This document shows, piece by piece, positions 3,128-20,945 of a stretch of DNA of 64,000 nt. Source of the DNA: Gammaproteobacteria bacterium. GTDB taxonomy: Bacteria; Pseudomonadota; Gammaproteobacteria; Eutrophobiales; Eutrophobiaceae. How positions within the stretch are numbered: position 1 is the first letter of the stretch; every line of letters starts with the position of its first letter. The stretch spans positions 1,601,288 to 1,665,287 of the forward strand of contig OZ241847.1 in NCBI GenBank assembly GCA_965202915.1. The letters run 5' to 3'. The position numbers and the translations under genes were made by a program. A model generated the notes under the pieces. That model did no database searches and was not told the DNA's origin. It was given only the letters and a program-made list of their open reading frames with translations.

Positions 3128-3664
3128 ATGAAAGAGGGCGGCAAAGGCGGAGGAAGAACCATTACTGGTTTGAACTTTGAAGACAAAGTCGATTTCTTGA
3201 CTCTGATTAAAGATATACCTAATTACAGTATTAAAAACCCTCAAAAAAAAGTAGGATGTGAAATTTACTATCGTCATAAATTAGTTGCACGGAGCTTTAA
3301 GAAACATGATTTTTATAATTTTTTGACCGAGGAAAAAATAGAATGGAACACTCTAATATCTGCGAAACTCTTACCGGATGATGCTTTGCTTGTTATTGTT
3401 CGAGAAACTTTATTTATTATTGAAGTAAAGTATCAGAAGGTGTCCGGATCTGTAGATGAAAAATTACAAACTTGTGACTTTAAACGGAAGAAATATCAAA
3501 AATTAGTTTCTTCATTGAACTTGAAAGTAGAGTATGTGTATGTTTTAAATGATTGGTTTAAACAGCCGAAATATAAAGACGTTCTTGATTATGTACATAG
3601 CGTCAATTGTCACTATAAATTTAATGAACTGCCGTTAACATGGTTAGGGTTGCCTACAGATTAG
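3128..3664 (+). CDS. Putative type II restriction endonuclease (PD-(D/E)xK), partner of the upstream methyltransferase.
   Basis: It lies 37 nt downstream of the methyltransferase on the same strand, with an AGGAA ribosome-binding site. Candidate catalytic motif 'PDDALLVIVRETLFIIEVKYQK' (PD, then E-x-K). Low GC. Confidence 0.5.
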   Translation: MKEGGKGGGRTITGLNFEDKVDFLTLIKDIPNYSIKNPQKKVGCEIYYRHKLVARSFKKHDFYNFLTEEKIEWNTLISAKLLPDDALLVIVRETLFIIEVKYQKVSGSVDEKLQTCDFKRKKYQKLVSSLNLKVEYVYVLNDWFKQPKYKDVLDYVHSVNCHYKFNELPLTWLGLPTD

Positions 3665-3775
3665 TTCTAACAAGCCATCCTTGATGCACTGTATGGAGCA
3701 GTTGAGATTCTTATTACTGCTTTTTGTGTCCCTTAGAAAATAGAATCATATTTGTCATTGAAATAAAGCCTTCTC

Positions 3776-5469: not shown

Positions 5470-5709
5470 CCGCGCCTGCCTTCCTTGAAGAGGAGGTGGT
5501 TTATGGGGACTATCCTTGAACTTCGGGACTTTTCATACGAAACGTGAATTGGAAAGGAACTGATCGAACCGGTCTCTCAGCCTGATTTTATTCGCGACAA
5601 GACCGCAGTCTTCCTGTTCCGCGATCCCCGCGACATTTCTGCACAATCTACGATCATTATTTTGTAAGTGTAAGAAGGAAACAAGCTGACATCCGGCCTT
5701 CCGTCAGCA

Positions 5710-6999: not shown

Positions 7000-7847
7000 G
7001 CCGAGTTGCCTTTTCCGGTAAAAGTGCCAAGTAACGCAGCCAACACGTTCAGGTAAAGTCGCAGCACTGTTTCGAGAAGGTCTTGAACTTTCTCTGCCTG
7101 CGGTTTCGTGTTTCCGGACGCATTTATAACGGCCTCTCTATCAACAACACCCAGAATGCGGTTTTCATGATCAACAACCGGGAGTATGGTGTTATTTCGC
7201 CACTGCTCCGCATCGAGAATTTCTGAAACTGGAGATTCGGCCGGCAATGGTTTCACATATTCTGAAAATTTCTCGAATTCTTCATTGGGGCCGCCTTCAA
7301 CGACACGCCGTGCGTTCATGACTCCCACGTATTGCCCGCCGGTTGATTCAAGCAATACCGGATTTCCCGGTGTGCTGTGTCTGATTAAAGTGAGTGCTGA
7401 CTCGGTATCGATATTTTGAGGCACAATTATCAGTTCGCTGGTAGCCAGTGTCCCAACACTATGGGTTGGATAATTCATAAAGCGTTGCAGGCTGCGGCGG
7501 CGGGGAGTGGCGGGAAGAGTTGCAAGCAATTCCCGACGCTTGCTCTGAGGAAGCCGGGCCAGTATAGCCCTGGCGTTTTCAAGCGGCCCTTTTTCGATGC
7601 ACTCGACAAATTTATCAAAAATTTCAACAACTATGGAATCGAGGGTCGTTGGAGAGAGTTGGGCAAGAACCGCCGAGCAGGAATCAATGGGTAAATCATT
7701 AAGTAGTGATGACGATTCACTTACAGAGGCTCGGTTTATAATGAATGCGAAATCCTTGGGGGCTTTGCCGGCGAAATCGCTCAGTAGCGTTGACTGATCA
7801 GTGCTCATCTTCGTATGCGTGTAATTTGGTTGCGATTGCTGAAACAA
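6996..7847 (-). CDS. Soluble protein with only the MgtE N-domain and a CBS pair (no channel domain).
   Basis: N-domain plus CBS architecture resembling the cytoplasmic part of MgtE, without TM segments. It overlaps the mgtE start by 4 nt. Confidence 0.55.
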   Translation of the reverse strand: MFQQSQPNYTHTKMSTDQSTLLSDFAGKAPKDFAFIINRASVSESSSLLNDLPIDSCSAVLAQLSPTTLDSIVVEIFDKFVECIEKGPLENARAILARLPQSKRRELLATLPATPRRRSLQRFMNYPTHSVGTLATSELIIVPQNIDTESALTLIRHSTPGNPVLLESTGGQYVGVMNARRVVEGGPNEEFEKFSEYVKPLPAESPVSEILDAEQWRNNTILPVVDHENRILGVVDREAVINASGNTKPQAEKVQDLLETVLRLYLNVLAALLGTFTGKGNSA

Positions 7848-8562
7848 ACAGTGAGCCCGGTACGTTGACTATGCCTTCCTCGGTGTCAACTCTTACGCCC
7901 GTTCTGGTGATCTCAACAATTTCACCTTCCACTTCACCCACGCGAATCCGATCCCCGATCCGATAATGTTCAAACTCGGAATGTGCTATAAGGTTTCCTA
8001 CGTAGTCTTTCGCGCCCAGTGAAACGGTCAATGAAAGCGCTCCTCCAACCAGAATTACTATCAACAGCAGTAACTGCGTGATAAAGGTGATATCGATCAA
8101 CATCTGCTGTAATCCCAGCACGATTGCTATCACCATTATCAAAAAGTGGATAAACCTGGGAGCCGGCGAGTCCGGCGTCATCGCTTCGCTCAGGTGTGAA
8201 ACCAGATAGCGTGAAACCACTCCAAGAACATTGCCAACGCCAATGATGACAAACCCGACCAGAATGCGGGGGATGAAGTCGAGAATGTTATTAAACCAGT
8301 TGGAGAACTGCCCTTCTCCCAACATGCTGATGGCAATTACCATTGAGAAGAGTGCAACCACCCAATAAGCGGCTGACTGTGAAAGGCGGATAAGATCGGG
8401 GGATATTACGGTGGCGTCACTGGTTGTATAGCGCGACGTCAATCGATCCAGCAGTGTCAAGATTCGCCCGGATTGATACTGGGTCAGTTTCGCCAGCGCA
8501 AATCCCAGAATCAGTACAACTACTGCTGCGATTTCGGGATGATTTTCAATAAGTTCCGCCAT
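7798..8562 (-). CDS. Mechanosensitive ion channel (MscS family).
   Basis: N-terminal TM helices followed by an MscS beta-domain ('RIGDRIRVGEVEGEIVEI'). Confidence 0.8.
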   Translation of the reverse strand: MAELIENHPEIAAVVVLILGFALAKLTQYQSGRILTLLDRLTSRYTTSDATVISPDLIRLSQSAAYWVVALFSMVIAISMLGEGQFSNWFNNILDFIPRILVGFVIIGVGNVLGVVSRYLVSHLSEAMTPDSPAPRFIHFLIMVIAIVLGLQQMLIDITFITQLLLLIVILVGGALSLTVSLGAKDYVGNLIAHSEFEHYRIGDRIRVGEVEGEIVEITRTGVRVDTEEGIVNVPGSLFVSAIATKLHAYEDEH

Positions 8563-8749
8563 TAATAGGATCCATGTTGAACGCGACCGATTACCACCCT
8601 CATTATTTTGTAGAAAGCAACTGTAGCTTTAAGCTACTTTGGCATTATAAACCGAATTCGGAAAATACGAAAGATTGTTCAGCCAGGGCCTGTTCATTCC
8701 AAATAGCATATCGATGATCAATGCGATAACGTGTGTGGAGGGAAAGTGG

Positions 8750-8880
8750 CGCCGCCTGCGCCGCTTCAACGACCTGGCCAAGGTCATTACGGGAATCACA
8801 TGCAAAGATGGAGTCGAGGTAATAGAATCAAGCCAGGTCGCCGCCTGCCTCAGGTGCTTAAACGCCACTTTTGACAATAG
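8750..8880 (+). repeat. Mobile-element-end-like repeat, copy 1 of 3. It translates as the C-terminal end of a protein ('RFNDLAKVITGITCKDGVEV..SQVAA').
   Basis: About 75-80% identical to 31065-31198 (same orientation) and to 32165-32235 (inverted). Confidence 0.6.
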
Positions 8881-8935
8881 CTCGCAGAATTTTATCAGGG
8901 CCGCGGCCGCGGCTAATAATTTTCAGTTGCCGTGT

Positions 8936-9692
8936 TCAAGCCATTTTTTTAGGCAGTGTTGTGTTAAAGCCGTCAATATGCTCTTGTAGATCTATATTAA
9001 TTTTAGCATACATTGCATCTAAAATAACTTCTATGCCCTCCATTCCAGCCAGTTTAGCAGCCGGGACAAAATCGCTATCACCAGAAATAAGGACAATTTT
9101 TTTAACTAATTTTTTATAGGCAAGTGAAGCAACGTCCAAACCTATTTTCATATCCACTGCTTTTTTGTATAGCGTGATAAACAATATCATTTTCATCTAA
9201 AGTTGTTTTGCTGGGATTGGCGATTAAAGTTCTTTGTTTTTCCGGGTTTTTGACTTTCCAGCGTGCGTTTTTTTCATCTAAGCGACCCAGCCTTAGGGTA
9301 ACATTGTGGGTTTGCTTCAGTAATGTATGTAAATTAAGCCTAAATTGCGCCAAATCGGTTTTAGACAAGTCAATTGCATCATTGGTAATAGGGTGTTTTA
9401 CCTTTTTTGTAAGCGGCGGACAATCGTAGAAAAAGATACGGTAAAGTCGCTCCTGCTCGCTTTTATTAATGTGTTTTAGGCAATGAGTGAGTAAGTCTTT
9501 AGTGATTTTTTGTGCCTCATTTTCCCTGCCAAAACGCCATTTGTAACATTTTAGATAAAAGCCACGATCTACCAATATCGCAACATCTCTCATAATATTC
9601 CTTATAAATATTGATTTATAAAAAAATCCAGAGGCTCGGCAAAAACCTAATTGTCGGTCTTGCTTACTGCTCTGGATTGTGTATGGTTGCAA
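8936..9692 (-). pseudogene. NYN/LabA-like domain protein (predicted PIN-like RNase), disrupted by a frameshift.
   Basis: Two overlapping ORFs (9114-9692 and 8936-9196) together give a complete NYN domain, including the 'LISGDSDF' motif. The frames join at a T6 run at 9161-9166 (A6 on the coding strand). One fewer A restores 'IQKAVDMKIGLD'. Confidence 0.55.
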
Positions 9693-9939
9693 TTATGCCC
9701 AATACAATGGCTCTTTCAAAAAAATATTATATTCATAGTTTCCGGGATACAACAATGGTATGCAATGACGCTCTATCCTGTTACTGTTCAACGATGTCAG
9801 AATTCCTTGTGCTCTTAAACAGCCATCTAACTTTCCATTAAATCGTCATGAGTGAACCAACCCCGAAGCCAAACGTATATGATTAGGCAACCCTACGACA
9901 CTGCTCGGTCCACCAGCAGTCAGCCGGCACCTCAGAAGC

Positions 9940-11637
9940 ATGACTGCATCAAGTAGGTACACCGAAGTAATTCCAGTTTCTCAGGTCGCTCTTAGGATAC
10001 CTGAAGGTGGCGATAATGATCGCTTCGATAAAATTGTGAAACAGATTCTGAGATGGATGGCCAAGCGGGCGGGCAAACCGCTTCCGGACCTTGCTTGGAA
10101 GGGTGAAACATTTGAAATTGAGGAGCCTGGTGCTCAAAGAGCCGCGGCAGTGCGAATGAATGATCCCCTTTATTGGACGGCAAGATTGGATGATGCAGAC
10201 AAAAACACACCCGGGCGTTCCTGGATTACAGAGGTCACAGTCGGCCGTAGCAAAGGTGGTGATGTACTCTTCGGCAGTAGGCTGATCTGCGCCTCAAGAG
10301 GCGAGCGGGAGCCTTTCACCCGTTCTATTCCTGGCTTCGTGCGCCAGGTGATCAGTAAGGGGGGCGTCTATTTAGATAACCGCCTGCTTACCGAGGAACC
10401 CTGGGTAGTAGGTGATGAAGATGGAGTAAAAAAGTTAGTGCAACTCCTCAAACTCTCCTCACGGCTTGCCGACGTCATCGTTGTATCTCTGCCCGAGAAA
10501 TCCGAGAATATTTCAGATGCGGCGATATCTGTGGAGAAATTGATTAAATCTGTCCTGGGTGGTGTTCATATTGCGGTGATCACTGGGCCAGCCGCTTATC
10601 ATTTAACACATTCCGTTGGTAAAGAATTTTCGGTTTTCCAAAAGTCCGTGAGAGTTTACCGGCCTGGCTTCGACCCCGAAAATGATGAAATATACATCCA
10701 TCCGCTGGGGTTGTGGCACCGAATAGAAACCTGGGACGAGCGGGGGCCATCAGCTTATCGGGAGTTTCTTGTCAATCGAACACTTGAACGCGGGCTTATC
10801 CGAAGGGATAGAAGGGATAGGGAAGATTACCTCCCTTCCTTTTTTGAAATCCGGAAAATGGCCGATGAGGACCGACTTAAGGCCGATGAGCGCCGACTTA
10901 AGGCCGATGAGCACCGACTTAAAGACACTAGAAGCTCAAGTATTTCTCTGTCTCTGTATAAGCGATTGGCTGAGGCTCGAGGGAAGATTATTGAGAAGCT
11001 CAAAAAAGATCGCATTAAAGAAAACAAAGACCGCGATGATCTTTACGAGTCTTGGTTGGAAAGCGAGGAACAGCAAAAAACCCAGGCCAAGGAGGAAAAT
11101 GCCGACCTAAAGCAACAGGTCAGGTCGCTCAAAGCCAGAGTAGATTACCAGCAAAGTGCCTTGCGGTCAGGAACTTATCGGGAAGATAATTTACCAGAGA
11201 ACTTTGATCAATTTGGCGAATGGTGTGAGAGGTATTTAGCCGGATCCGTCGTGGTCTTGAACCGGGTGTACGCGGAGTCAAGAGCAGCATATACGAGGAC
11301 AAGACGCTCATTTACAACGCACTCCTGCTTCTTCGCGATCACTATTTACCGTTTCGCCTGCAGAGAGGAAAGGATATCAAGAAAGGTTATGAAGAGGCAC
11401 GCACCGAATTAGAGCTTAAGGAAACCCGTACTATCACCAACCTTCGCGCCGGAGAGCAGCGAGAGGCTTACTTCGTGAAATTTGACGGCAAGAGACGCAA
11501 ATTGGAGCGGCACCTTAAGAAAGGGTCTGGCCGAGACCAGCGACATTGCTTTCGTCTCTACTTCTTCTATGATCAGGCAACGGAGCAAGTTGTCGTCGGC
11601 CACATGCCCGACCATCTGCCGACACGCGCCTCCTGAA
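9940..11637 (+). CDS. Hypothetical protein: a roughly 300-aa globular N-terminal region followed by a charged coiled-coil tail. It probably continues in another frame from about 11233 to 11637.
   Basis: Long ORF with 'RLKADE(R/H)RLKADE' repeats and a Lys/Glu-rich heptad region. The downstream frame from 11233 reads as plausible protein ('KTLIYNALLLLRDHYLPFRLQRGKDIKKGYEEARTELELKETRTITNLRAGEQREAYFVKFDG..') but has no start codon. No family was recognised. Confidence 0.45.
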
Positions 11638-11883
11638 ATTGGGAGTGTAAATATTTATTTTTTCAATTTTTTTGTCGGGAGCTCCTCGGTTCAACCTCAT
11701 GCTACCGGGTATATGATCTCCTGATCTATCTCATTGAGAAGTTTCATGTTGATATACCTGCGGGCTCGCGACGCGGTCGTGGACATGTGCCTTAATCTGG
11801 CCGCAACCAACATCAGAGCTGCGTTGCAATCCGGGAATACGCCCACAACTCTGGTTCTACCTGCCTGCCGGAAAAAGCAGCCA

Positions 11884-12200
11884 GGGCGCCTGTGCCTCCG
11901 CCGCTCGTGCCACCACCCAGGGCATTACCTTCCCATATCGCCGGCGGCGATACCGGACGTACCGCCAACGTGGACCCGCTCAACACTGCAAGCAAGCAAC
12001 CGGTGAAACCCTTCGCTAAAGTGTGTCTCTGTGCCAATGTGCCCAGTCACTGCCATACACTCTGAAATACGGCTCTCCATAGAATCCATCCGGCCTGATC
12101 GGTATGCATTTTCACATTCTTTTGACCACTATCAGCCGCTTTATGCCCCGATCATGATCTGCCTTCTTTGAAGAAAAGATGGTTTATAAGTACTATCCTT
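11884..12200. repeat. Island direct repeat, copy A (about 317 bp).
   Basis: About 80% identical to 14087-14385. Its 3' part ('gccccgatcatgatctgccttctttgaagaaaagatggtttataagtac') is also shared with 16365-16440. Confidence 0.8.
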
Positions 12201-12251
12201 TTCTTAACAACGGAATCTATTTGGTCTTAGACTAATATGAACCCTTACTAA

Positions 12252-13907
12252 ATGATGAAGATGGATAACTTGGAACAACGGGATCTATGTGGCAAAATTG
12301 AACCGCCCATAATCGCTATCGAGGAATCAGCGAATCGCCTGGGCGTCTCCACTGCGACAATTCGCAATTGGATAAAAACGAAATATTTGAAAAAGGCCGG
12401 AAAAGGAAAGATTACGCTGGAATCTTTGGAACAGTTTCAGTCTGATATTTCCGGAAGGGAAAAGTTGATTCAGCGGGCCAACAAGTCGCTTAAAGACTCG
12501 CATGATCACGAGGAAACTGTATCGGAGTTTCTCGGGCGCATTGCATCATCTGTCGAGTCGCCGGATGAGATTGGTATTGAATACGAATCGAGTTTATCAG
12601 ACTCCTATCGCAACAAAGAGGGAGTTTATTATACCCCTGACGACGTTGTTCGAGATTTATTTGCAATACCACACGTTGATATTCAAGATGCATCATTCTG
12701 TGATCCCTGTTGCGGTTCCGGGAACTTTGTTGTTCGCGCAATAGAGTTGGGGTTCGGACCGGAAAACATTTATGGGTATGACGTCGATCCGATTGCAGTC
12801 GAAATAACAAAGGCGAGAATTTATCAGGCCACCGGATACAAAAGTGAGAATATCAAGGTCGCCAATTTCTTAGACATAACATCCAGTCAAGAGACTCCAG
12901 GTTTTGATTACATATATACAAACCCACCGTGGGGCAAGAAGCTGGGGAAGGAAACACGAGAGCTAATCGGATTAAGGCTTGAGGCAGGAACCAGTATAGA
13001 CACTTGTTCGCTCTTCTTGTTTGCCTGTTTACAATGCCTTAAAGACAAAGGGATGCTTGGGTTACTTTTGCCTGAGTCTTTTTTCAATATTACTACTTTC
13101 CAGGATGCTCGGATTAAAGCTCTTCAGTTTTCCATTGAAAGACTGGTTGACTATGGAAAGGTATTTAAAGGTCTTGTAACAAAAGCACACGCAATAATTA
13201 TTAGAAAAGAAGTCGCTGATTCACATGCGAGAATCTTATGCGAGCTCACGGGCTCCATCCATAAGAGATCAATCGGATCATTTTTGTGCAATCCAAGGTC
13301 AATCCTGAATTTACATTGTAACGAAGAGAATGCGCTTACATTACAACATTTGATGTCAATCCCATTTATTACGCTAAAGGAGCAGGCGTCTTGGGGGCTG
13401 GGAATCGTTACAGGTAACAATAAAAAATTTATTAAAACTCTTCCTGAAAGCGGGTATATTCCCGTTCACAAAGGCGCTGATATTTCGAATGGAAGATTGA
13501 AAGAAGCCAGTAGCTTTATCCCATCGGATATGAATTTATATCAGCAGGTAGCACAACTTCGGCTATATAAAGCAAGGGAAAAACTGATCTATAAGTTTAT
13601 ATCCTCGAGACTTTGCTTTTTTTATGACGATCAGCAAAGGTTTGTTCTTAACAGTGCAAATATGCTGATTCCCGATGATGCCTTTCCGGTTTCCACTAAA
13701 GTTCTCGGTGAACTCTTGAGCAGTGATTTTATGAATTGGTTGTTTTCCGGCATTTTCAAAACACACAAAATACTAAGGGGCGATTTAGAGTCACTTCCGA
13801 TTCACAGTCAGTTCCTCAAAGATGTATCCGGCTTCGATGAGGAAAGCTACCTCCAACAACTTAACATAGAGAGAGGGGACAATGGAACTTACCGAATTAA
13901 GAGATAG
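12252..13907 (+). CDS. Gamma-class N6-adenine DNA methyltransferase with an N-terminal HTH domain and a C-terminal target-recognition region (Eco57I/TaqI-like N6_Mtase).
   Basis: HTH 'LGVSTATIRNWIK'. Motif I 'DPCCGSGNF'. Motif IV 'NPPWG'. An extra C-terminal region of about 200 aa. Confidence 0.85.
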   Translation: MMKMDNLEQRDLCGKIEPPIIAIEESANRLGVSTATIRNWIKTKYLKKAGKGKITLESLEQFQSDISGREKLIQRANKSLKDSHDHEETVSEFLGRIASSVESPDEIGIEYESSLSDSYRNKEGVYYTPDDVVRDLFAIPHVDIQDASFCDPCCGSGNFVVRAIELGFGPENIYGYDVDPIAVEITKARIYQATGYKSENIKVANFLDITSSQETPGFDYIYTNPPWGKKLGKETRELIGLRLEAGTSIDTCSLFLFACLQCLKDKGMLGLLLPESFFNITTFQDARIKALQFSIERLVDYGKVFKGLVTKAHAIIIRKEVADSHARILCELTGSIHKRSIGSFLCNPRSILNLHCNEENALTLQHLMSIPFITLKEQASWGLGIVTGNNKKFIKTLPESGYIPVHKGADISNGRLKEASSFIPSDMNLYQQVAQLRLYKAREKLIYKFISSRLCFFYDDQQRFVLNSANMLIPDDAFPVSTKVLGELLSSDFMNWLFSGIFKTHKILRGDLESLPIHSQFLKDVSGFDEESYLQQLNIERGDNGTYRIKR

Positions 13908-14086
13908 AATCATTGCCTCATTCACCGGATCGAAAAGTGATCTGGCAGATATTTTAGCGATGCCAGAGAGAGCTGGCCATATTTACGTTTAATGAATATG
14001 AGCACTGAGTCAGAGTATCCTTGATCTATTTCGGTTATTAGTTGTCCTTAGCTTACGTTGCCTTTTATCGCCCGCCTTGTTGCCCT

Positions 14087-14385
14087 GGCGCCCAGACCCA
14101 AGACACCAGCTTCCCATCCCGTCGTCGGCGATACTAGATGTACGGCCGGCATAGAACTGCTCAACATCTGCAAGGAAGCAACCGTTGAAACCCATCGATA
14201 ACGTGTCTCTCTGTGCCAACGCGATCAGTCACTATCAAACAATCTAAAATACTGCTCTCCAAAGCATCCATCCGGCCCAATCGGGACTCATTTTCACAGC
14301 CTTTTGAACATTATCAGCCGCTCTATGCCCCGATCATTATCCGCCTTCCTTGAAGAAAAGGTGGTTTATAAGTACCATTCTTGAA
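14087..14385. repeat. Island direct repeat, copy B (about 300 bp).
   Basis: Homologous to copy A and to copy C. Confidence 0.8.
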
Positions 14386-14428
14386 GGCGTTATGAGCAAA
14401 AAAGCAAAATCGCACATCGGAGTAGTTT

Positions 14429-15073
14429 TTGTGTATTTGTATAATGAAAGAATTAATAAAAAACATAGAAGCGTTAGCGGATACTTATTCTTTAAATCTT
14501 AAAACAAAGATTGAGGACAGGAAACGAGAAATGGAAGAGGATGATAATTCTCATTATTTGATTTATCGGGTTCTTGGAATAACAAATGAAGAGGGGAAAC
14601 TAATTGATTCATATCAAAATACAGGACGTTTTTTATATAAATACGCAGGCTCATTTTTAGAAGAAGCTGCAACGTATTGCTTTAAGTTTAAATATTCAGA
14701 AGGAGAAAAAAGAAAGATACCGAATACAGAAGGAGTCAGACCTAAAACATTTGAGATTGATTTTCTAAATGATACTGATGCCATTGAAATTAAATGGAGA
14801 GATGCAACAACCGATGGAGACCACATTACTAAAGAACATTCAAGGGTTCAAACAATAAAAGCGAAAGGATTCAAGCCTATTCGGGTTATGTTTTATTATC
14901 CGCAAAGAGCTCAAGCGATTAAAATACAGGACACCCTGAAAACCTTATATGCGGGAGTAGGCGGAGAATACTATGCTGGTAATAATGCATGGAATTTTGT
15001 TAAGGATTACACAGGTGTTGATCTGAAAGGTATTCTTATGAAAATTGCTGAGAAAAAGACTAAATCTGAATAA
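14429..15073 (+). CDS. Putative type II restriction endonuclease, partner of the downstream methyltransferase.
   Basis: Very AT-rich. Its stop overlaps the methyltransferase start (TAATG). Possible PD-(D/E)xK-like segment 'FEIDFLNDTDAIEIKW'. No family recognised. Confidence 0.45.
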   Translation: MCICIMKELIKNIEALADTYSLNLKTKIEDRKREMEEDDNSHYLIYRVLGITNEEGKLIDSYQNTGRFLYKYAGSFLEEAATYCFKFKYSEGEKRKIPNTEGVRPKTFEIDFLNDTDAIEIKWRDATTDGDHITKEHSRVQTIKAKGFKPIRVMFYYPQRAQAIKIQDTLKTLYAGVGGEYYAGNNAWNFVKDYTGVDLKGILMKIAEKKTKSE

Positions 15074-16302
15074 TGGAACTGAACAAAATATATAATGGCG
15101 ACTGTTGTGAGGTTTTAAAGGATTGTAATTCAGAGTCTGTAGATTTAGTATATCTTGACCCTCCTTTCTTTACACAAAGAGAACATTCTTTAAAAACAAG
15201 GGATAATTCCATAGAATACAAATTTGATGATAAATGGGATTCAATCAATAACTATATTAAGCTTATAAAAAGTGTTGTATCAGAATGTAAAAGGATTCTA
15301 AAACCTACAGGCTCAATATTTTTGCATTGTGATAAAATAGCTTCTCACTATATCCGTGTTGCGTTAGATGAAGTTTTCGGAATGAATAATTTTCAAAGCG
15401 AAATAATCTGGAATTATAAACGCTGGTCGAATTCAAAAAAAGGTCTATTAAACTCGCATCAAGTGATTTACTTTTATTCGAAGTCCAGCAAATTTAAGTT
15501 CAATCAATTATATACCGATTACTCTCCGACCACAAATATTGACCAAATATTACAAGAGCGTCAAAGAGATAAAAATGGTAAATCTGTTTATAAAAAAGAT
15601 GAAAAAGGAAATATGGTATTTGCAAAAGAAAAGAAAGGGGTACCGCTATCCGATGTTTGGGATATTCCATATTTGAACCCAAAAGCAAAAGAAAGGGTTG
15701 GTTACCCGACACAAAAACCAGTTTCATTGTTGCAGCAAATAATAAAAATTTCTACAGAAGAAAATGACCTGGTGATAGACCCATTTTGTGGTAGTGGAAC
15801 AGCTTGCGTTGCGGCTAAGACTTTAAATAGAAACTATTTAGGAATAGATAAATCAAAAAACGCTGTTGAGTTGGCAAACAAACGACTTGAAGAGCTGATT
15901 GTGACTGATTCAAACTTACTGAAAAAGGGTGCAGATAGTTATATAGCAAAATCCGATAAAGAATTAGGCTTATTAAAAGCAATTGGAGCAGTTCCCGTTC
16001 AAAGAAATGCCGGGATTGATGGATTTTTAAAAGAACAGATTAATGGAAAGCCTATTCCTGTTCGAATACAGAAGGATTTTGAGACGCTGGATGATACTAT
16101 TAGGGCATTGGACGGCTCAACACAGGCAAGGAAATCAGACGTGAAAATAATTATTCAAACAAATGACACTCGTGGATTATTCCAGTTAAATACGAATGCG
16201 GTTATTTTGCCTTCAAATGAATTGATTATTAAGGAAAAATTACAGCGCATAACAATGTATATAAATAATGGTGGTGATTTACAGAAGATTGGAAAATTGT
16301 AG
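15073..16302 (+). CDS. Beta-class DNA methyltransferase (N6A/N4C) with an extra C-terminal domain.
   Basis: Motif IV 'LDPPF', then motif I 'DPFCGSGTACVAA', plus about 150 additional C-terminal residues. Confidence 0.85.
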   Translation: MELNKIYNGDCCEVLKDCNSESVDLVYLDPPFFTQREHSLKTRDNSIEYKFDDKWDSINNYIKLIKSVVSECKRILKPTGSIFLHCDKIASHYIRVALDEVFGMNNFQSEIIWNYKRWSNSKKGLLNSHQVIYFYSKSSKFKFNQLYTDYSPTTNIDQILQERQRDKNGKSVYKKDEKGNMVFAKEKKGVPLSDVWDIPYLNPKAKERVGYPTQKPVSLLQQIIKISTEENDLVIDPFCGSGTACVAAKTLNRNYLGIDKSKNAVELANKRLEELIVTDSNLLKKGADSYIAKSDKELGLLKAIGAVPVQRNAGIDGFLKEQINGKPIPVRIQKDFETLDDTIRALDGSTQARKSDVKIIIQTNDTRGLFQLNTNAVILPSNELIIKEKLQRITMYINNGGDLQKIGKL

Positions 16303-16364
16303 TCCACATGAGAGTTATTGGTGTTTTGATAGTTATTTCCACGTAATCCACCGCTATCCATATA

Positions 16365-16440
16365 CTATCAGTTGCTCTCTGCCCCGATCATTACCTGCTC
16401 TCCTTGAAGAAAAGATAGTTTATAAGTACTATCCTTCGGC
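16365..16440. repeat. Island direct repeat, copy C (about 76 bp, 3' core only).
   Basis: 'ctgccccgatcattacctgctctccttgaagaaaagatagtttataagtactatcc' matches the 3' ends of copies A and B. Confidence 0.75.
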
Positions 16441-16513
16441 GTCGTGTGCTGGCCCTGCGCAGTTTTAAACAGCTTTAAGGTACTGGTGTTCTCGTTGTTT
16501 TTTTACTGCCAGT

Positions 16514-17491
16514 TCAACCAAATAAACTTGTTTGAATTGTGGCTTCGTTTTGGATGACTGGTTTCCTGGAAAGAATCTTTTTAACCATGCCGGACCGGTT
16601 TTTGCGTTCGATTATGGTTATGTCTTTTTGTTCTCTGATTAATTGTCTATTTAGGTCGTATTTTGGACTACCGGAATTTTTATTATTGTCATAAATAACT
16701 GCTCTTGGAATAGCGTAATTTAAAGCATATTCCATTGCCAACCTTGAACCGCTGTCATTTCCCCGGTCGTTTTTGGCATAGCTCGCTGAAAGGATAATAC
16801 AGTCACTAAAGAGGGCTTGTAATCTGTCACGTTCCTGGTATCTGCTACTTAATTCCATTTTTGATTTTGTTTCATCATAATACTCACTAATCAATAGTCC
16901 GTTTTTCTGAACTATTTCGTTTGCAAGTTCTTTGTTTGCTCCCGGCATAATGTTGTTTGAAGGACCTGGTAGAATTGCAATTGTTTTACCATTGGAATCC
17001 AACGTCTGCCTATGTGCAATTGTGTCGCAACCCAAGGCAAGACCACTGACAATAGTGGCACCATTTTTAACCAATTCATCTACAATTTCCCTTTCAATAA
17101 TTTCAGTGTCGGGGTCGGGATTAAGAAGTCCAATAACCGCTATGTTTTTACTTGAAGCCTTTAATAAACTCAGGTCGCCACAATAGAACAAAAAAACCGG
17201 CTGCTCACTGTTTTTAATGTTTCCCCTGTAAGGGGGAAAATTTGAATCACCAATGGCAATAAGCCCGTCTGTAAAACCATCTAAATTTTTCAAATTCTCT
17301 TGAAGTCTTGTTTTATCTCTTTCAAACCTTTCAAAGGTAATTGGATGATCTTCTTTTGAATCTTTGTTCAAAAGCGATACGATAGTATTAACACTTTCGT
17401 TTCCTTCCAGATTTTTGATTATCCAGGCCCTGCCAATACCTTTGTAGTTTTTGGCGGCAAGGACGTTTAGTGCGTTCTCTGTATAAATCAC
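16514..17491 (-). CDS. DprA/Smf-like DNA-processing protein paralog (SAM-like N-domain plus Rossmann domain, no C-terminal winged helix).
   Basis: 'GDSNFPPYRGNIKNSEQPVFLFYCGDL' resembles the DprA 'YP..L..PP.LF..G' segment. 'NIAVIGLLNPD..ATIVSGLALGCDTIAHRQTL..GKTIAILPGP' is the Rossmann-fold core. The gene is AT-rich and lies inside the island. Confidence 0.6.
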   Translation of the reverse strand: MIYTENALNVLAAKNYKGIGRAWIIKNLEGNESVNTIVSLLNKDSKEDHPITFERFERDKTRLQENLKNLDGFTDGLIAIGDSNFPPYRGNIKNSEQPVFLFYCGDLSLLKASSKNIAVIGLLNPDPDTEIIEREIVDELVKNGATIVSGLALGCDTIAHRQTLDSNGKTIAILPGPSNNIMPGANKELANEIVQKNGLLISEYYDETKSKMELSSRYQERDRLQALFSDCIILSASYAKNDRGNDSGSRLAMEYALNYAIPRAVIYDNNKNSGSPKYDLNRQLIREQKDITIIERKNRSGMVKKILSRKPVIQNEATIQTSLFG

Positions 17492-17657
17492 GTCTTTACT
17501 TTTTCTTGTTTAATATGGAGACCGACGAGTTTTACCAACTACAAAAAAAGAAACAGACCTTGCTCCATTTCCCATTGGATTCGATTGTAAATCTGTTCAT
17601 ATTTGCAGAGTAAATCCTCCGGGTGTGTCGGAATCAAAACCTGACCGCGCTGTATAT

Positions 17658-18014
17658 TCAGTCTCCCCGATATATACAGCCGGAGGTACAGGTTTCTTTG
17701 ATTATAATGGAAGATAACTGCGGTAAATCGGGTTTGAGGCGGGCCCAAATCCAAGCCGCTAAATTTTCACAGGTTGGATTTTCCAATCCCTCAATATCAT
17801 TTAAATAACGATGATCCAGCTGATCATGGATGGGCTTAAAATGTTGATCAAGCTCGGCGAAATCCATGATCCAGCCGGATGGTTTCCCCGGCTCATCGGT
17901 CACGTGAATCTCTATGCAGAATGAGTGGCCATGCAGGCGTCGGCATTTGTGATCTTCAGGCACGTTGGGCAGCATATGGGCCGCCTCTATGGTGAATATT
18001 TTGAATATTTCCAT
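17658..18014 (-). CDS. queD: 6-carboxy-5,6,7,8-tetrahydropterin synthase (QueD).
   Basis: '[13 protein letters not shown]' zinc/catalytic motifs and a length of about 118 aa, counted from the internal Met 'MEIFK'. Confidence 0.85.
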
Positions 18015-18024
18015 GGTATGGATT

Positions 18025-18864
18025 TTAGTCCTGACTTGATACCTTGTACTGCTGATATAGCTGGTTGACTTTCTCCCATAATGCTCCCGGCTTGCCGCTG
18101 TCACCGATCCGGTCGTCATCCAGTTGTACGACGGGTACGATCCCCCGTGTGGAGCTGGTCACCCAAATTTCATCCGCGTCCCTCAATTCCCGCTCCACTA
18201 TGTCGGTTTCTTCATATTTAATGCCGGCGGTATCCAGTAATTTCAATACTAAATCACGGGTTACGCCCGGCAGTACTCCGTTGGTTTTTTGCGGGGTCTT
18301 AACAAGATCATCGCACACTATAAAGACGTTACTTGCGGCGCCTTCCGACACTTTCCCAGCGCGCGTTAATATCGCCTCCTGGGCGCCTTTTAATTTCGCA
18401 CGATGACGCAATATGACGTTGGGCAATAAAGTGATGGCCTTGATGTTACAGTAATCCCATCTAATATCCTGATGGACGATTGCTTTAATCCCCTCCGCAT
18501 AATTCTTTTTCGAGACCGGAAAACACATTGCCAATACGGTGGGTCGTTCACATATATCAATGTCGTAATCGCGTTTGGAAATACCGCGACTGATCTGTAC
18601 GTAAATGGTTTGTTGCCCGTCTTTGTCTTTTACCAGGGTATGAAAAATCTTTTCCCACTGCCGGTGATTTAACGGGTTATCGATATAAATATTGCGAAGA
18701 CTGTTGTCCAGTCGCCGTAAATGTTCTTTCAGTCCGAGTATTTTTTTATCAAAAACGGGGATGATTTCATAGACGCCGTCGGCAAACATAAATCCTCTAT
18801 CCATTACGTTGATATTAGCCTGCTCCGGCGGCACGTACTCGCCGTTCAAATATACGGTTGACAT
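18025..18864 (-). CDS. Class IV aminotransferase (D-amino-acid aminotransferase or aminodeoxychorismate-lyase family).
   Basis: Fold-type IV PLP-enzyme length and motifs. It lies in the cell-wall gene cluster. Confidence 0.7.
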
Positions 18865-18872
18865 TGCGGCGC

Positions 18873-20012
18873 TTAATCAAATAATAAACGCAGCTGATCC
18901 GACAGCCGGCGAAAAAAACTGCCTCTGGCTACGGAATGCAATGCAATGACCGGCGCCGATATGACCGGGTCTCCGGCCAATTGAATATTAAGCACGCCTA
19001 TTTCATCTCCTTTATCGATGGGCGCAATGATACGCCCTAAGTCGACCGTGGCTTCTAATTTTTCATACTGCCCCTTTGGAATGGTGATATATAGTTCTTG
19101 TGTTATGCCCAGGTCAATTGTTTCCTTTTTGCCCTTCCATACTTTGGCGGTGTCAATCGATTCGCCACCGTCGTATAATTTATGGGTTTCATAGAAACGA
19201 AATCCATAATCCAGCAACAACTGACTTTCCCTGTTTCTGGCGTCCGGGCTGCCCGTGCCCATCACCACCGAGATTAAACGCATACCATTTTCAATCGCGG
19301 ACGCGACAAGACAATAGCCCGCGTCTTCGGTGTGCCCGGTCTTTATTCCATCCACTGAATGCTTGTCCCACAATAATTTGTTTCTGTTGTATTGTTTTAT
19401 ATCGTTAAAGGTGAATTCGCGTATTGCATGCCAGGAATAAATCCTGGGAAAATCATTAATTAATGCGCCGGACAAGGTTGCCAGGTCCCTGACGGTGGTG
19501 TAATGCTCCGGTTCCGGCAAACCGGTGCTATTTAAATAATGGGTATTTTGCAGCCCCAATGTTTGGGCGTGTCGGTTCATTACATTGGCGAATACCTCTT
19601 CACTGCCTGATATGAATTCGGCCACCGCGACGCTGGCGTCATTGCCGGATTGTATGATTATGCCTTTTAACAGGTCCTCAACGGTAACTTTTTTACCCAC
19701 TTCAATAAACATTCTTGAGCCGGTCATGCGCCAGGCTTTTTCACTAATGAGGACCTCATCATCAAGCCGTATCCCACCACTTCTGAGAACGTCCGCGGCC
19801 ACGTACACCGTCATTATCTTGGTCAGGCTGGCGGAGGGTAATTTTTTGTCTATGTCACGTTCGACAATCACCTTGCCGCTGTGATGATCGACCAATATAT
19901 ATGATGATGCATTCAATTGTGGCGGAGCCGGGATGATTGTTTGAGCAACGGCCGCGCCACCAAGAGCGATTTGCATCAATACTATAAAACTATAAAGAAA
20001 GAATCTGAGCAT
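18873..20012 (-). CDS. dacA: D-alanyl-D-alanine carboxypeptidase (PBP5/6 family).
   Basis: Signal peptide, 'SLTKIMT' (SxxK), 'SGN' motif and 'KTG' motif. Confidence 0.9.
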   Translation of the reverse strand: MLRFFLYSFIVLMQIALGGAAVAQTIIPAPPQLNASSYILVDHHSGKVIVERDIDKKLPSASLTKIMTVYVAADVLRSGGIRLDDEVLISEKAWRMTGSRMFIEVGKKVTVEDLLKGIIIQSGNDASVAVAEFISGSEEVFANVMNRHAQTLGLQNTHYLNSTGLPEPEHYTTVRDLATLSGALINDFPRIYSWHAIREFTFNDIKQYNRNKLLWDKHSVDGIKTGHTEDAGYCLVASAIENGMRLISVVMGTGSPDARNRESQLLLDYGFRFYETHKLYDGGESIDTAKVWKGKKETIDLGITQELYITIPKGQYEKLEATVDLGRIIAPIDKGDEIGVLNIQLAGDPVISAPVIALHSVARGSFFRRLSDQLRLLFD

Positions 20013-20062
20013 ACTGGTATTTGTTTGGAAAATTAATCGTTATACCACTCAAGTGAAACCAG

Positions 20063-20917: not shown

Positions 20918-20945
20918 CTTATTTACCCAAAGTTATCGATTTGAT

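What the first reader, a model, noticed from the sequence alone, without database searches (positions are those of the whole stretch)
8600..17550. Low-GC modular island between mscS and queD carrying methyltransferase/R-M modules, a DprA-like gene and two frameshifted genes
Conserved core genes (mscS at 7.8-8.6 kb, queD at 17.7-18.0 kb) flank about 9 kb of AT-rich DNA.

The island contains:
- a mobile-element-end repeat,
- an NYN-domain gene with a homopolymer frameshift,
- a 490-aa coiled-coil protein of unknown function, also frameshifted,
- an HTH-fused gamma-class N6A methyltransferase,
- a candidate restriction endonuclease plus a beta-class methyltransferase,
- a diverged DprA-like gene.

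Three diverged direct repeats separate the modules. The overall layout is a defence-island or cassette-array architecture in which unrecognised components, namely the 490-aa protein and the DprA-like protein, may belong to an undescribed system.
Basis: partly seen in the sequence, partly recalled or inferred. Interest (0 to 1): 0.7.

Follow-up and report, generated by a model that had tools for sequence, protein, structure and literature searches.

The report
Decaying defence island with orphaned antidotes
This 9-kb stretch collects five already described anti-phage modules; in four the harmful gene is broken or deleted, two of them keep an intact protective partner, and only one restriction-modification pair is complete, so it is a tidy example of defence-gene decay and not a new system.

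Summary

The two "unrecognised" proteins belong to described systems and are unrelated to each other:
- The 490-aa protein is HEC-07, a phage-tested single-gene RelE-type defence. A 1-nt deletion has made it a pseudogene, and sibling strains have largely deleted it.
- The DprA-like protein is a ShosA antitoxin of a Shosta (ShosTA) system. Its toxin gene has been deleted internally, leaving about 9 N-terminal and 19 C-terminal codons.

The HTH-gamma methyltransferase is what remains of a second type II R-M system; its endonuclease gene is cut to about 42 codons. The NYN gene is frameshifted in a T6 run. Only the ApaLI-like R-M pair is intact. An IS256-family transposase fragment marks the left side.

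Harmful genes were lost and protective genes kept. The two orphans show purifying selection (pN/pS 0.065 and 0.24).

Only about 6.5 kb is AT-rich. HEC-07 and the repeats have host-like GC.

The repeats (about 310, 310 and 73 nt, with a partial fourth copy outside the island) are non-coding and unstructured, were found in no other sequence searched, and share one sharp right edge. They are best read as long target duplications left by R-M cassette insertions, but that mechanism is not proven.

Interest is modest.

The parts
8675..8879 (+). 3'-terminal fragment of an IS256-family transposase gene plus the IS end. The strain-polymorphic junction at 8752 lies inside it.
   Evidence: It is 79-83% identical to window 31048-31201, and a shorter stretch matches 32166-32230 in inverted orientation. 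In-frame translation gives ...WRRLRRFNDLAKVITG...VEV...QVAA. The sister-copy peptide hits annotated IS256-family transposases at 60% identity, E 3e-20. Pfam and NCBIfam gave no hit.
8936..9593 (-). NYN (PIN-like RNase) gene, now a pseudogene through a +1 frameshift in the T6/A6 run at 9161-9166.
   Evidence: Pfam NYN at 2.4e-10 on the C-terminal ORF. There are 581 homologues at E<=0.001, typically 230-245 aa. tblastn shows the frame switch at 9159-9166. Deleting one base gives a 218-aa ORF. The same split appears in Logan contig L001/L005. GC3 is 0.30-0.35.
9940..11636 (+). HEC-07 defence gene, with an AdoMetDC-like domain, a thioredoxin-like domain and a C-terminal RelE-like RNase. A 1-nt deletion near 11264-11278 makes it a pseudogene and puts the RNase domain out of frame.
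   Evidence: PADLOC PDLC04161 gives 1.8e-120 for profile positions 17-437 and 1.3e-22 for 502-553. tblastn with intact 552-562-aa homologues shows one frame switch at 11271/11274. Inserting one base restores 565 aa. The domain description and phage tests come from the preprint. GC is host-like.
8753..11317 (.). A 2,565-bp segment present in this strain and absent from sibling strains. It holds the right part of the IS fragment, the NYN gene and the 5' 1.38 kb of HEC-07.
   Evidence: L010/L008 (SRR23871865) join window 8752 directly to 11318 at 98.6-99% flank identity. L009 (SRR23871859) has the same junction, and contigs L002 and L003 break at 8752. The 3' stump of HEC-07 survives in those strains, so the event was a deletion. 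The junction has only about 3-4 nt of microhomology.
10860..10922 (+). Three in-frame 21-nt tandem repeats (ADEDRLK/ADERRLK/ADEHRLK) in the coiled-coil linker of HEC-07.
   Evidence: Family D4, the translation, and a gap in homologues at this point.
11891..12200 (+). Repeat T1, about 310 nt, non-coding and host-like in GC. Its last 73 nt form the core shared by all three island copies.
   Evidence: nhmmer 5.6e-109. Mismatches show no codon periodicity and every frame contains stops. GC is 0.51. Folding is not significant, z -0.5.
12252..13907 (+). HTH-fused gamma-class N6-adenine DNA methyltransferase ('M551'), intact and now an orphan.
   Evidence: Pfam HTH_17, N6_Mtase, Eco57I and TaqI_C. 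PADLOC MTase_II PDLC03356 at 9.2e-195 over its full length. Homologues at 60-77% identity occur across phyla. pN/pS against strain B is 0.065.
13882..14005 (+). Stump of the cognate type II restriction endonuclease gene: about 42 codons, with an internal frameshift.
   Evidence: In Nitrospirota contig L040 the 76%-identical methyltransferase is followed, with overlap, by a 241-aa protein that matches PADLOC REase_II PDLC03414 at 2.5e-137. tblastn of that protein hits window 13882-13986 at 71% identity (E 1.6e-10) and 13976-14005 in another frame. The stump is identical in strain B.
14073..14382 (+). Repeat T2, about 310 nt.
   Evidence: It is 84% identical to T1 over 215 nt and 71% over the leftmost 82 nt. 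nhmmer gives 4.1e-109. GC is 0.49. In strain B a central patch carries T1-like bases, which indicates gene conversion.
14444..15073 (+). ApaLI-like type II restriction endonuclease, intact. An alternative TTG start lies at 14429.
   Evidence: Pfam RE_ApaLI at 3.6e-88, covering 4-188 of 189 positions. PADLOC REase_II PDLC03586 at 4.1e-83. It is intact in strain B, with one difference. GC3 is 0.24.
15073..16302 (+). Beta-class (N6A/N4C-type) DNA methyltransferase, partner of the ApaLI-like endonuclease, intact.
   Evidence: Pfam N6_N4_Mtase at 4.4e-59. PADLOC MTase_II PDLC03339 at 1.5e-175, covering 2-393 of 399 positions. Its start overlaps the endonuclease stop. GC3 is 0.28.
16364..16436 (+). 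Repeat T3, consisting of the 73-nt core only.
   Evidence: It matches T1 at 63/73 and T2 at 61/73 positions. The right edge...ACTATCCTT, is the same as in T1 and T2.
16514..17491 (-). ShosA-like DprA-superfamily protein, the antitoxin of a Shosta (ShosTA) system. It is intact and now an orphan.
   Evidence: PADLOC ShosA PDLC03961 at 3.5e-47, covering 19-287 of 303 positions. It scores below the TIGR00732 dprA cut-off, 108 against 191 bits. It is about equally distant from solved DprA and ShosA structures. Homologues at 65-77% identity occur across phyla, always downstream of HAD and ShosT-like PRTase genes. pN/pS against strain B is 0.24.
17509..17600 (-). Scar of the ShosT (PRTase toxin) gene. 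The start codon plus 8 codons (MNRFTIESN, 17600-17574) are joined out of frame to the last ~19 codons (NGARSVSFFVVGKTRRSPY*, 17569-17509).
   Evidence: tblastn of ShosT-like proteins from L021, L022, L019 and L012 was used. The C-terminal match has E 0.022 against the whole window and is the best hit. The N-terminal match is 8/9 identical to MNTFTIESN. A profile HMM of four ShosT sequences searched against all 3,310 six-frame peptides ranks this fragment first (E 0.023). Position, strand and order are exactly as expected, just upstream of ShosA. The scar is shared by strain B.
17627..17650 (+). A 24-nt copy of the 3' end of the ABC-2 permease gene (last codons, stop and 6 nt). It forms a direct repeat with 5452-5475.
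   Evidence: 23/24 identical, blastn-short E 8e-6. The two copies bracket 5476-17626.
5476..5517 (+). T4, a fourth and partial copy of the repeat core, lying outside the reported island directly after the ABC-2 permease stop. It has the same right edge as the others.
   Evidence: nhmmer E 8.6e-6. A 33-nt degenerate pattern matches 4 times in the window, all on the + strand, against 0 in shuffles. Another strain-polymorphic junction lies at 5554.

Best explanation
The locus is a defence island in an advanced state of decay, built from already described systems. From left to right it holds:
- an IS256-family fragment;
- a stand-alone NYN RNase gene, frameshifted;
- HEC-07, a single-gene RelE-type RNase defence, frameshifted here and largely deleted in sibling strains;
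- a type II R-M system whose endonuclease is cut to a 42-codon stump, leaving an intact HTH-fused gamma N6A methyltransferase;
- an intact ApaLI-like R-M pair;
- a Shosta (ShosTA) toxin-antitoxin defence whose PRTase toxin gene was deleted internally, leaving the intact DprA-like antitoxin ShosA.

**Shown here.** The identity of each part, each inactivating lesion, the strain polymorphism, and purifying selection on the two orphans.

**Inferred.** These are addictive or self-toxic modules, so they can be lost safely only toxin first. The antidote halves then persist. The methyltransferase keeps methylating its site, and ShosA keeps binding ssDNA and RecA as published for ShosA. Either may protect against re-invasion by the same module, or may have been co-opted for another role.

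**Inferred more weakly.** The direct repeats T1-T3 are resident, host-GC intergenic DNA that once lay between the convergent HEC-07 and ShosA genes. It was duplicated each time an R-M cassette inserted at one and the same point, the right edge of the 73-nt core. This is the 'insertion with long target duplication' described for R-M units. The copies later diverged and underwent gene conversion.
For: **Component identities.**
- PADLOC, Pfam and NCBIfam results.
- HEC-07 homologue family of 540-570 aa, with its published description and phage tests.
- ShosA neighbourhoods in 4 of 4 independent contexts: HAD, then ShosT-like PRTase, then ShosA.
- E. coli ShosT is itself a fusion of a HAD-type pyrophosphatase and a PRTase, so the two upstream genes amount to a split ShosT (PMC11961720).
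- ShosA acts as antitoxin through ssDNA and RecA binding (PMC12961424).

**Lesions.**
- NYN T6-run frameshift.
- HEC-07 1-nt deletion.
- Endonuclease stump, 71% identical, E 1.6e-10.
- ShosT N- and C-terminal scar.

**Population data.**
- A 2,565-bp deletion of NYN plus the HEC-07 5' part in L010 and L009.
- Both remnants are shared by strain B.

**Selection on the orphans.** pN/pS is 0.065 for the methyltransferase and 0.24 for ShosA, against 0.03 for Dat.

**Repeats.**
- Non-coding, with no Rfam hit and no significant fold.
- GC of 0.49-0.51, like the host, while the cassettes between them have GC3 of 0.24-0.43.
- Identical right edge in four copies.
- They meet three criteria of Furuta et al. 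2010: R and M genes in the insert, insert under 20 kb, repeat over 30 bp (PMC2853133).
- No integrase or transposase domain in the island proteins scanned with Pfam.
Against: **Against the repeat mechanism.**
- No empty site, meaning a relative with a single T and no cassette, was found, so target duplication is not demonstrated.
- The repeats are 11-29% diverged from each other while the strains differ by 1-2%. Either the duplications are old or T2 arrived with its cassette from a diverged donor.
- The endonuclease stump ends only about 70 nt before T2. That fits an insertion that truncated the gene at least as well as a later deletion.
- T4 and the 24-nt repeat (5452-5475 / 17627-17650) show that the locus history is more complex than two insertions.

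**Weaknesses in other evidence.**
- The ShosT scar rests on short matches (E about 0.02 each) and gains its weight from position.
- pN/pS values rest on 17-21 substitutions between only two strains.
- The ApaLI site GTGCAC is not avoided in the window (6 observed, 7.9 expected), so neither activity nor specificity of the intact R-M is supported by composition.
Confidence: 0.8

Rival explanations
1. The middle repeat T2 was not duplicated in place. It arrived together with the ApaLI-like R-M cassette from a diverged relative. The right end recombined homologously (core, ShosA, queD) and the left end joined illegitimately inside the resident endonuclease gene, truncating it. This would be homology-facilitated illegitimate recombination.
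For: T1 and T2 are 16-29% diverged, far more than the strains are. The endonuclease stump ends at about 14005 and T2 begins at about 14073. The ApaLI-like cassette plus T3 is nearly identical between strains, with 2 differences across the R.ApaLI, M409 and IG+T3 segments (2,071 nt). T1 and the HEC-07 stump differ by about 9% between strains, so the locus is a recombination mosaic. The cassette has very low GC3, 0.24-0.28.
Against: No donor-type locus (T'-R-M-t') was found in any collection searched. The model still needs a 73-nt duplication flanking the cassette in the donor. T2 has host-like GC, so the donor would have to be a close relative.
Confidence: 0.25
2. The repeats are attachment sites of a site-specific recombination system. 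The two methylase cassettes would be tandemly accreted small integrative elements, or integron-like cassettes, and the shared right edge would be the crossover point.
For: Four copies share the same orientation and the same sharp edge. Each lies at the 3' side of a + strand gene block. The pattern DR-cassette-DR-cassette-DR is that of tandem accretion. Strain-polymorphic junctions lie near the copies.
Against: None of the island proteins scanned with Pfam matches a recombinase, integrase or transposase family. The only mobile-element trace is a dead IS256 fragment. The copies lack attC-like hairpins, with folding z-scores between -2.0 and +0.4. The duplicated lengths differ, about 310 nt against 73 nt, which a fixed att core does not predict. 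No match to the core was found in 185,579 species genomes, JGI metagenomes or viral contigs.
Confidence: 0.12
3. The 490-aa protein and the DprA-like protein are parts of one undescribed multi-gene defence system.
For: Both lie in one island, and neither has a Pfam family that explains its function.
Against: Each matches a different described system almost end to end. Each has its own conserved context elsewhere: HEC-07 as a tested single gene, ShosA with HAD and PRTase genes. They lie 5 kb apart on opposite strands with different GC. HEC-07 is deleted in sibling strains that keep ShosA.
Confidence: 0.03
4. The frameshifts are not decay. They are phase-variable or programmed switches, or assembly errors, and the NYN and HEC-07 genes are functional.
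For: The NYN lesion sits in a homopolymer (T6/A6). Each gene has only a single lesion and no further stops.
Against: The same lesions appear in independent assemblies from other runs. A 6-nt run is short for phase variation. The HEC-07 lesion is not in a homopolymer. Sibling strains have deleted both genes outright, which argues against selection to keep them.
Confidence: 0.05

Closest known systems
HEC-07 (Hma-embedded candidate 7; Payne et al., bioRxiv 2024.01.29.577857; PADLOC PDLC04158-04161)
   Same: There is a full-length profile match. The restored ORF is 565 aa, against 540-570 aa for homologues. The RelE-like C-terminal segment ends ...VVVGHMPDHL.
   Different: Here it is a pseudogene, with a 1-nt deletion upstream of the RNase domain. 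It is not embedded in an Hma system. It carries an extra 3 x 7-aa repeat in the linker. Sibling strains have deleted its 5' 1.38 kb.
Shosta / ShosTA type IV toxin-antitoxin defence (Millman et al. 2022; PMC11961720; PMC12961424)
   Same: The gene encodes a DprA-like antitoxin matching the PADLOC ShosA model. Its close homologues sit directly downstream of a ShosT-like PRTase gene.
   Different: In this subfamily the HAD-type hydrolase and the PRTase are two separate genes, whereas E. coli ShosT is a fusion. In the window both are gone apart from a ~90-nt scar of the PRTase gene, so only the antitoxin is left. By sequence the protein is as far from crystallised ShosA (E 9e-14) as from H. pylori DprA (E 1.5e-16).
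Orphan DNA methyltransferases derived from decayed type II R-M systems
   Same: An intact methyltransferase under purifying selection lies next to a stump of its cognate endonuclease gene.
   Different: The N-terminal HTH fusion is retained. The specificity is unknown.
ApaLI-type type II R-M system (Pfam RE_ApaLI)
   Same: The endonuclease matches the whole family model, and an overlapping beta-class methyltransferase follows it.
   Different: Specificity was not determined. GTGCAC is not under-represented in the 64-kb window.
R-M gene units inserted with long target duplication (Nobusato et al. 2000, cited from memory; Furuta, Abe & Kobayashi 2010, PMC2853133)
   Same: R-M cassettes under 20 kb are flanked by direct repeats over 30 bp, with no associated mobility gene. 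The repeats have host composition and the inserts have foreign composition.
   Different: Two cassettes sit in tandem and share one insertion edge, with duplications of different length (about 310 and 73 nt). The repeats are 11-29% diverged. The published cases examined are near-identical repeats of tens of bp: 46-47 bp at 43-47 matches in the Table 2 rows read. No empty site is available here.

Membership tests
HEC-07 | Sequence match to the HEC-07 profile over the whole protein, including the C-terminal RelE-like segment | tested here: met
   PDLC04161 at 1.8e-120 (profile positions 17-437) and 1.3e-22 (502-553). There are 111 homologues, mostly 540-570 aa.
HEC-07 | One uninterrupted ORF encoding all three domains | tested here: not met
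   There is a single frame switch at 11271/11274. A 565-aa ORF appears only after inserting one base.
HEC-07 | Protection against phage that depends on the conserved RelE-type histidine | not testable with these tools
   This was reported for the tested homologue.
Shosta (ShosTA) | DprA-like antitoxin ShosA | tested here: met
   PDLC03961 at 3.5e-47, covering 19-287 of 303 positions. The ORF is intact, with pN/pS 0.24.
Shosta (ShosTA) | Adjacent PRTase toxin ShosT, with a HAD-type hydrolase domain or gene | tested here: not met
   Only a ~90-nt scar of the PRTase gene remains and no HAD remnant was found. Homologous loci do carry both genes.
Canonical DprA (natural transformation) | Score above the TIGR00732 equivalog cut-off | tested here: not met
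   108.2 bits against a cut-off of 191.15. PRK10736 gives 91 bits against 495.
Type II R-M, ApaLI-like | Endonuclease of the RE_ApaLI family with an adjacent DNA methyltransferase, both intact | tested here: met
   Both are intact in strain B as well.
Type II R-M, ApaLI-like | Recognition of GTGCAC with matching methylation | tested here: inconclusive
   GTGCAC occurs 6 times against 7.9 expected, so there is no avoidance. No methylome data are available.
Type II R-M #1 (PDLC03356 methyltransferase / PDLC03414 endonuclease) | Cognate endonuclease gene present and intact | tested here: not met
   Only codons 1 to about 42 remain, and they carry a frameshift.
Integron cassette array | attC sites, meaning imperfect palindromes that fold as hairpins, at cassette 3' ends | tested here: not met
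   Folding z-scores for the three cores range from -2.0 to +0.4 on both strands. The conservation is in sequence, not structure.
Integron cassette array | Adjacent IntI tyrosine recombinase | tested here: not met
   None of the island proteins scanned with Pfam matches a recombinase family. The rest of the genome was not available.
R-M insertion with long target duplication (Furuta et al. 2010 criteria) | R and M homologues in the insert, insert under 20 kb, flanking direct repeat over 30 bp | tested here: met
   The inserts are about 1.9 and 2.0 kb, and the repeats about 310 and 73 nt. The criteria are quoted.
R-M insertion with long target duplication (Furuta et al. 2010 criteria) | A related genome with the uninterrupted single-copy target (empty site) | not testable with these tools
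   All strain-level relatives carry both cassettes. The nearest other species lacks the locus. Pattern scans found no other T copy.
IS256 family insertion sequence | Similarity to IS256-family transposase | tested here: met
   tblastn against annotated plasmids gives 60% identity and E 3e-20. The element is only a ~200-nt 3' fragment and is not functional.

The most novel reading that the evidence does not exclude
The right edge of the 73-nt core (...GTTTATAAGTACTATCCTT|) may be a lineage-specific, integrase-free insertion point. R-M cassettes would use it repeatedly, each entry duplicating a variable length of the resident sequence. That would make this locus a natural tandem record of self-mobilising R-M units, with a fixed nick on one side and a variable one on the other.
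Probability: 0.15. Interest if true: 0.6.

Novelty: new member of a known kind. Interest (0 to 1): 0.3.

Why it matters
The finding removes two supposed unknowns by assigning them to HEC-07 and ShosA. It also gives a compact natural example of how addictive defence modules decay. In one 9-kb locus the nuclease or toxin genes of four modules are broken or deleted. Two antidote genes, a methyltransferase and an antitoxin, stay intact and under purifying selection, and the deletion of HEC-07 is still polymorphic in the population. Such orphan antidotes are the raw material for anti-addiction or regulatory functions. The tandem repeat-cassette-repeat layout also adds a case to the poorly understood 'long target duplication' route of R-M mobility. 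Nothing here calls for a new kind of system.

Tried and rejected
- **Rfam.** A permissive scan of 8000-18500 gave only a chance lncRNA hit at E 0.96. No tRNA or tmRNA is present in the window, so there is no tRNA-type att site.
- **Repeats as coding remnants.** Rejected. Mismatches show no codon periodicity, every frame has stops, and Pfam finds nothing on the ORFs inside them.
- **Repeats as structured DNA or RNA.** Rejected.
- **Repeats as promoters.** TTGAAG-17-TACTAT in the core falls below the scanner's threshold, and promoter-like sites in the island are no more frequent than in shuffles (14 against 19.9). This was not pursued.
- **Repeat core in public collections.** Zero hits in GTDB species genomes, JGI metagenomes (two patterns) and viral contigs. 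The metagenome negative is weak, because that collection misses a JGI scaffold (L007) known to contain the pattern.
- **Orthologous junction.** Only one more distant genome was recovered (L004, MscS 74% identical). Only the MscS-MgtE_N-MgtE block is shared; its neighbour is an M28-type peptidase and not HEC-07. The insertion could therefore not be delimited phylogenetically.
- **Exact-sequence look-ups.** QueD (two start choices) and ShosA were not on record.
- **Viral contigs.** No relatives of the methyltransferase were found, and only distant (29-42%) phage DprA-like proteins for ShosA.
- **Plasmid tblastn for the methyltransferase.** Only distant hits.
- **Pfam and NCBIfam on the IS fragment peptides.** No hit. 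The assignment rests on tblastn to annotated plasmids.
- **L004 563-aa ORF.** A first guess that it was an intact HEC-07 was wrong.

Full report
**1. Observation**

The interval between an MscS-like gene (7798-8562, minus strand) and queD (17658-18014, minus strand; passes the TIGR03367 cut-off) is 9.1 kb.

Composition is mosaic, not uniformly AT-rich.

| Segment | GC3 or GC |
|---|---|
| NYN | GC3 0.30-0.35 |
| Gamma methyltransferase (M551) | GC3 0.43 |
| ApaLI-like endonuclease and its methyltransferase | GC3 0.24-0.28 |
| DprA-like gene (ShosA) | GC3 0.34 |
| HEC-07 | GC3 0.49-0.60 |
| Direct repeats | GC 0.49-0.51 |
| Neighbouring core genes | GC3 0.47-0.56 |

The three direct repeats are real. 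T1 (11891-12200) and T2 (14073-14382) are about 310 nt and 71-84% identical. T3 (16364-16436) is only the last 73 nt. The pairwise core identities are 61-65 of 73. A 50-nt degenerate pattern hits exactly these three sites and none in 100 shuffles.

**2. The two frameshifted genes**

*NYN gene.* Homologues (581 at E<=0.001, typically 230-245 aa) align to two frames that switch inside the T6/A6 run at 9161-9166. Removing one base gives a 218-aa NYN protein starting at about 9593.

*The 490-aa ORF.* This protein is not unknown. It matches the PADLOC HEC-07 profile at 1.8e-120, and the 53-aa ORF downstream matches the last 52 profile positions at 1.3e-22. tblastn with intact 552-562-aa homologues shows a single frame switch at 11271/11274. 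Inserting one base restores a 565-aa ORF.

HEC-07 was described as a single-gene system with AdoMetDC-like, thioredoxin-like and C-terminal RelE-like RNase domains, and it reduced plaquing of phages in E. coli (bioRxiv 10.1101/2024.01.29.577857). Here the RNase domain is out of frame.

Both lesions recur in independent assemblies of other runs.

**3. Population evidence**

Exact-protein look-ups recovered sibling strains.

- In Logan contig SRR23871865_7200 (L008/L010), window 5554-8752 is joined directly to 11318-23907 at 98.6-99% identity. That strain therefore lacks 8753-11317, which holds NYN and the 5' 1.38 kb of HEC-07.
- The same junction occurs in L009, and two other contigs break at 8752.
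- Because the 3' stump of HEC-07 survives in those strains, the event was a deletion of a gene that is frameshifted in the window strain.
- A JGI scaffold (L007) has the same methylase, R-M, DprA-like and queD order, but with N gaps.
- The only more distant genome found (L004, MscS 74% identical) shares just the MscS-MgtE_N-MgtE block and has other neighbours.

**4. The DprA-like gene**

- It scores below the dprA equivalog cut-off (108 against 191 bits). It matches PADLOC ShosA nearly end to end (3.5e-47).
- It has thousands of homologues. Full-length proteins 65-77% identical occur in Patescibacteria, Clostridiales and Sphingobacterium.
- In four independent contexts (L011-L018, L019, L021, L022) the homologue is the third gene of an operon: HAD-family hydrolase, then a 200-240-aa protein matching PADLOC ShosT and weakly Pfam Pribosyltran, then ShosA.
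- E. coli ShosT is a fusion of a HAD-type pyrophosphatase domain and a PRTase domain (PMC11961720). These loci are therefore Shosta systems with a split toxin.
- In the window, the 166 nt between ShosA and queD contain, on the ShosA strand and in the right order, MNRFTIESN and NGARSVSFFVVGKT. The first is 8/9 identical to the ShosT start MNTFTIESN. The second matches the ShosT C-terminus in all four homologues.
- The C-terminal match is the best tblastn hit in the whole window. It is also the top hit of a ShosT profile against all 3,310 six-frame peptides.
- The toxin gene was thus deleted internally and the antitoxin kept. No HAD remnant was found.

**5. The HTH-gamma methyltransferase**

Its 76%-identical homologue in a Nitrospirota contig is followed, with overlap, by a 241-aa protein that matches a PADLOC type II endonuclease model at 2.5e-137. 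The window retains the first ~42 codons of that endonuclease gene at 13882-14005. They are 71% identical (E 1.6e-10) and carry a frameshift, and nothing more of the gene remains. The methyltransferase is therefore the orphan survivor of a second type II R-M system.

**6. The intact module**

The RE_ApaLI-family endonuclease (3.6e-88, full model) and the overlapping beta-class methyltransferase (PDLC03339, 1.5e-175) are intact in both strains, with 2 substitutions in 1.86 kb. GTGCAC is not avoided in the window (6 against 7.9 expected). Specificity and activity remain untested.

**7. Pattern and inferred logic**

Four modules have lost the harmful gene: the NYN RNase, the HEC-07 RNase domain, the endonuclease and the ShosT toxin. 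Two partner genes remain intact: the M551 methyltransferase and the ShosA antitoxin.

Between the window strain and strain B the orphans show purifying selection. pN/pS is 0.065 for the methyltransferase and 0.24 for ShosA, against 0.03 for Dat. Both remnants are shared by the two strains, so the losses predate their split.

This is the expected toxin-first decay of addictive modules. That reading is an inference from established toxin-antitoxin and R-M biology and was not tested here. Published work shows that ShosA neutralises ShosT indirectly, by ssDNA binding, dimerisation and RecA interaction (PMC12961424). Nothing in that mechanism prevents it from remaining active without its toxin.

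**8. The repeats**

- They are non-coding, have no Rfam match and show no significant fold.
- The core was not found in 185,579 species genomes, JGI metagenomes or viral contigs. The metagenome collection does miss a scaffold known to carry it.
- All copies share the same right edge (...ACTATCCTT), after which the sequences are unrelated.
- They bracket the two methylase cassettes as T1-[M551 + endonuclease stump]-T2-[ApaLI-like R-M]-T3.
- Host-like GC in the repeats, foreign GC in the inserts, absence of any recombinase, and repeat lengths far above 30 bp fit 'insertion with long target duplication' as defined for R-M units (PMC2853133).
- Under that reading T was the intergenic DNA between the convergent HEC-07 and ShosA genes.

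Several points weigh against a simple version of this reading.
- The copies are 11-29% diverged.
- The endonuclease stump ends about 70 nt before T2.
- The ApaLI-like cassette is almost identical between strains, while T1 and the HEC-07 stump differ by about 9%.

An alternative fits these points at least as well. T2 may have arrived with the ApaLI-like cassette from a diverged relative, with an illegitimate left junction inside the endonuclease gene.

In strain B a central patch of T2 carries T1-like bases, which shows gene conversion between copies.

A classical att or integron reading is disfavoured. There is no recombinase, there are no hairpins, and the duplicated lengths are unequal.

**9. 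Edges of the island**

*Left edge.* Window ~8675-8879 is a 3' fragment of an IS256-family transposase gene plus its end, and the 8752 deletion junction lies inside it. Sister copies lie at 31048-31201 and, inverted, at 32166-32230. The sister-copy peptide is 60% identical (E 3e-20) to annotated IS256-family transposases on plasmids.

*Right edge.* Next to the queD stop, 17627-17650 repeats 23/24 nt of the last codons, stop and 6 nt of the ABC-2 permease gene at 5452-5475. At that left site the 24-mer is followed immediately by a fourth partial T core (5476-5517) and by another strain-polymorphic junction at 5554.

The history of the wider 5.4-17.7-kb interval is thus more complex than I could resolve. 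One possibility is that ABC-2 and queD were once convergent neighbours.

**10. Verdict**

The proposal of an undescribed system is not supported.

The locus is a decayed island made of HEC-07, a NYN gene, two type II R-M systems and a split-toxin Shosta. Only one R-M pair is intact and two antidote genes are orphaned.

It is a new member of known kinds and its interest is modest. The only element that might prove unusual is the shared insertion edge of the repeat-bracketed R-M cassettes.

Noticed in passing
window 2083-3775: A low-GC (0.33-0.38) cassette holds a type II methyltransferase (2240-3091; PADLOC MTase_II PDLC03371 at 1.2e-93) and a 178-aa ORF with a weak PD-(D/E)XK hit (3128-3664). 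The whole 1.7 kb is absent from JGI scaffold L007, so it is another strain-variable R-M-like insertion.
   Followed up: partly
window 31048-35517: This is a second defence patch. Two IS256-family transposase 3' fragments lie in inverted orientation (31048-31201 and 32166-32230) with their ends facing a 232-aa ORF that has no Pfam hit (31447-32145). They are followed by an EcoO109I-like endonuclease (32815-33564, 1.1e-90) and two N6_N4 methyltransferases (33545-34402, 34534-35517) in low-GC DNA.
   Followed up: partly
window 5452-5554 and 17627-17650: A 24-nt direct repeat (23/24 identical), equal to the 3' end of the ABC-2 permease gene, brackets the 12.2 kb from the fourth T-core copy (5476-5517) to the ShosT scar. 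Strains L010 and L003 diverge from the window to the left of 5554. ABC-2 and queD may once have been convergent neighbours.
   Followed up: partly
whole window: Palindrome statistics: CGATCG occurs once against 20.8 expected, and GTATAC 0 times against 5.7 expected. Both are strongly avoided, whereas the ApaLI site GTGCAC is not (6 against 7.9). This hints at a long-resident R-M of PvuI-like specificity somewhere in the genome.
   Followed up: no
L011-L018, L019, L021, L022 (ShosA homologue loci): A Shosta variant encodes the toxin as two genes (a HAD-family hydrolase and a ShosT-like PRTase) upstream of ShosA. The ShosA proteins are 65-77% identical across Patescibacteria, Bacteroidota, Clostridiales and this proteobacterium, which implies recent wide horizontal spread. 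In L019 it sits beside SIR2 and AbiC-like genes, in L021 beside HisKin-conflict/iREC genes, and in L022 beside NERD-helicase and SACS/NOV_C genes.
   Followed up: partly
window 10860-10922: Three in-frame 21-nt tandem repeats (7 aa each) lie in the coiled-coil linker of HEC-07. Homologues lack them.
   Followed up: no
window 14073-14382 versus L010 6005-6314: T2 differs at 18 of 310 positions between two strains, while the flanking endonuclease stump and ApaLI-like cassette are 99.8-100% identical. Ten of the 18 strain-B bases equal T1, which indicates gene conversion between repeat copies. T1 in the window also has an extra indel of roughly 26-36 nt between two CCAGGGC motifs.
   Followed up: partly
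tool behaviour (metagenome contigs): The metagenome pattern scans returned nothing, although JGI scaffold 3300000051|Botbay15_c000258 (L007) contains two exact matches to the first pattern scanned. Negatives from that collection are therefore incomplete.
   Followed up: yes
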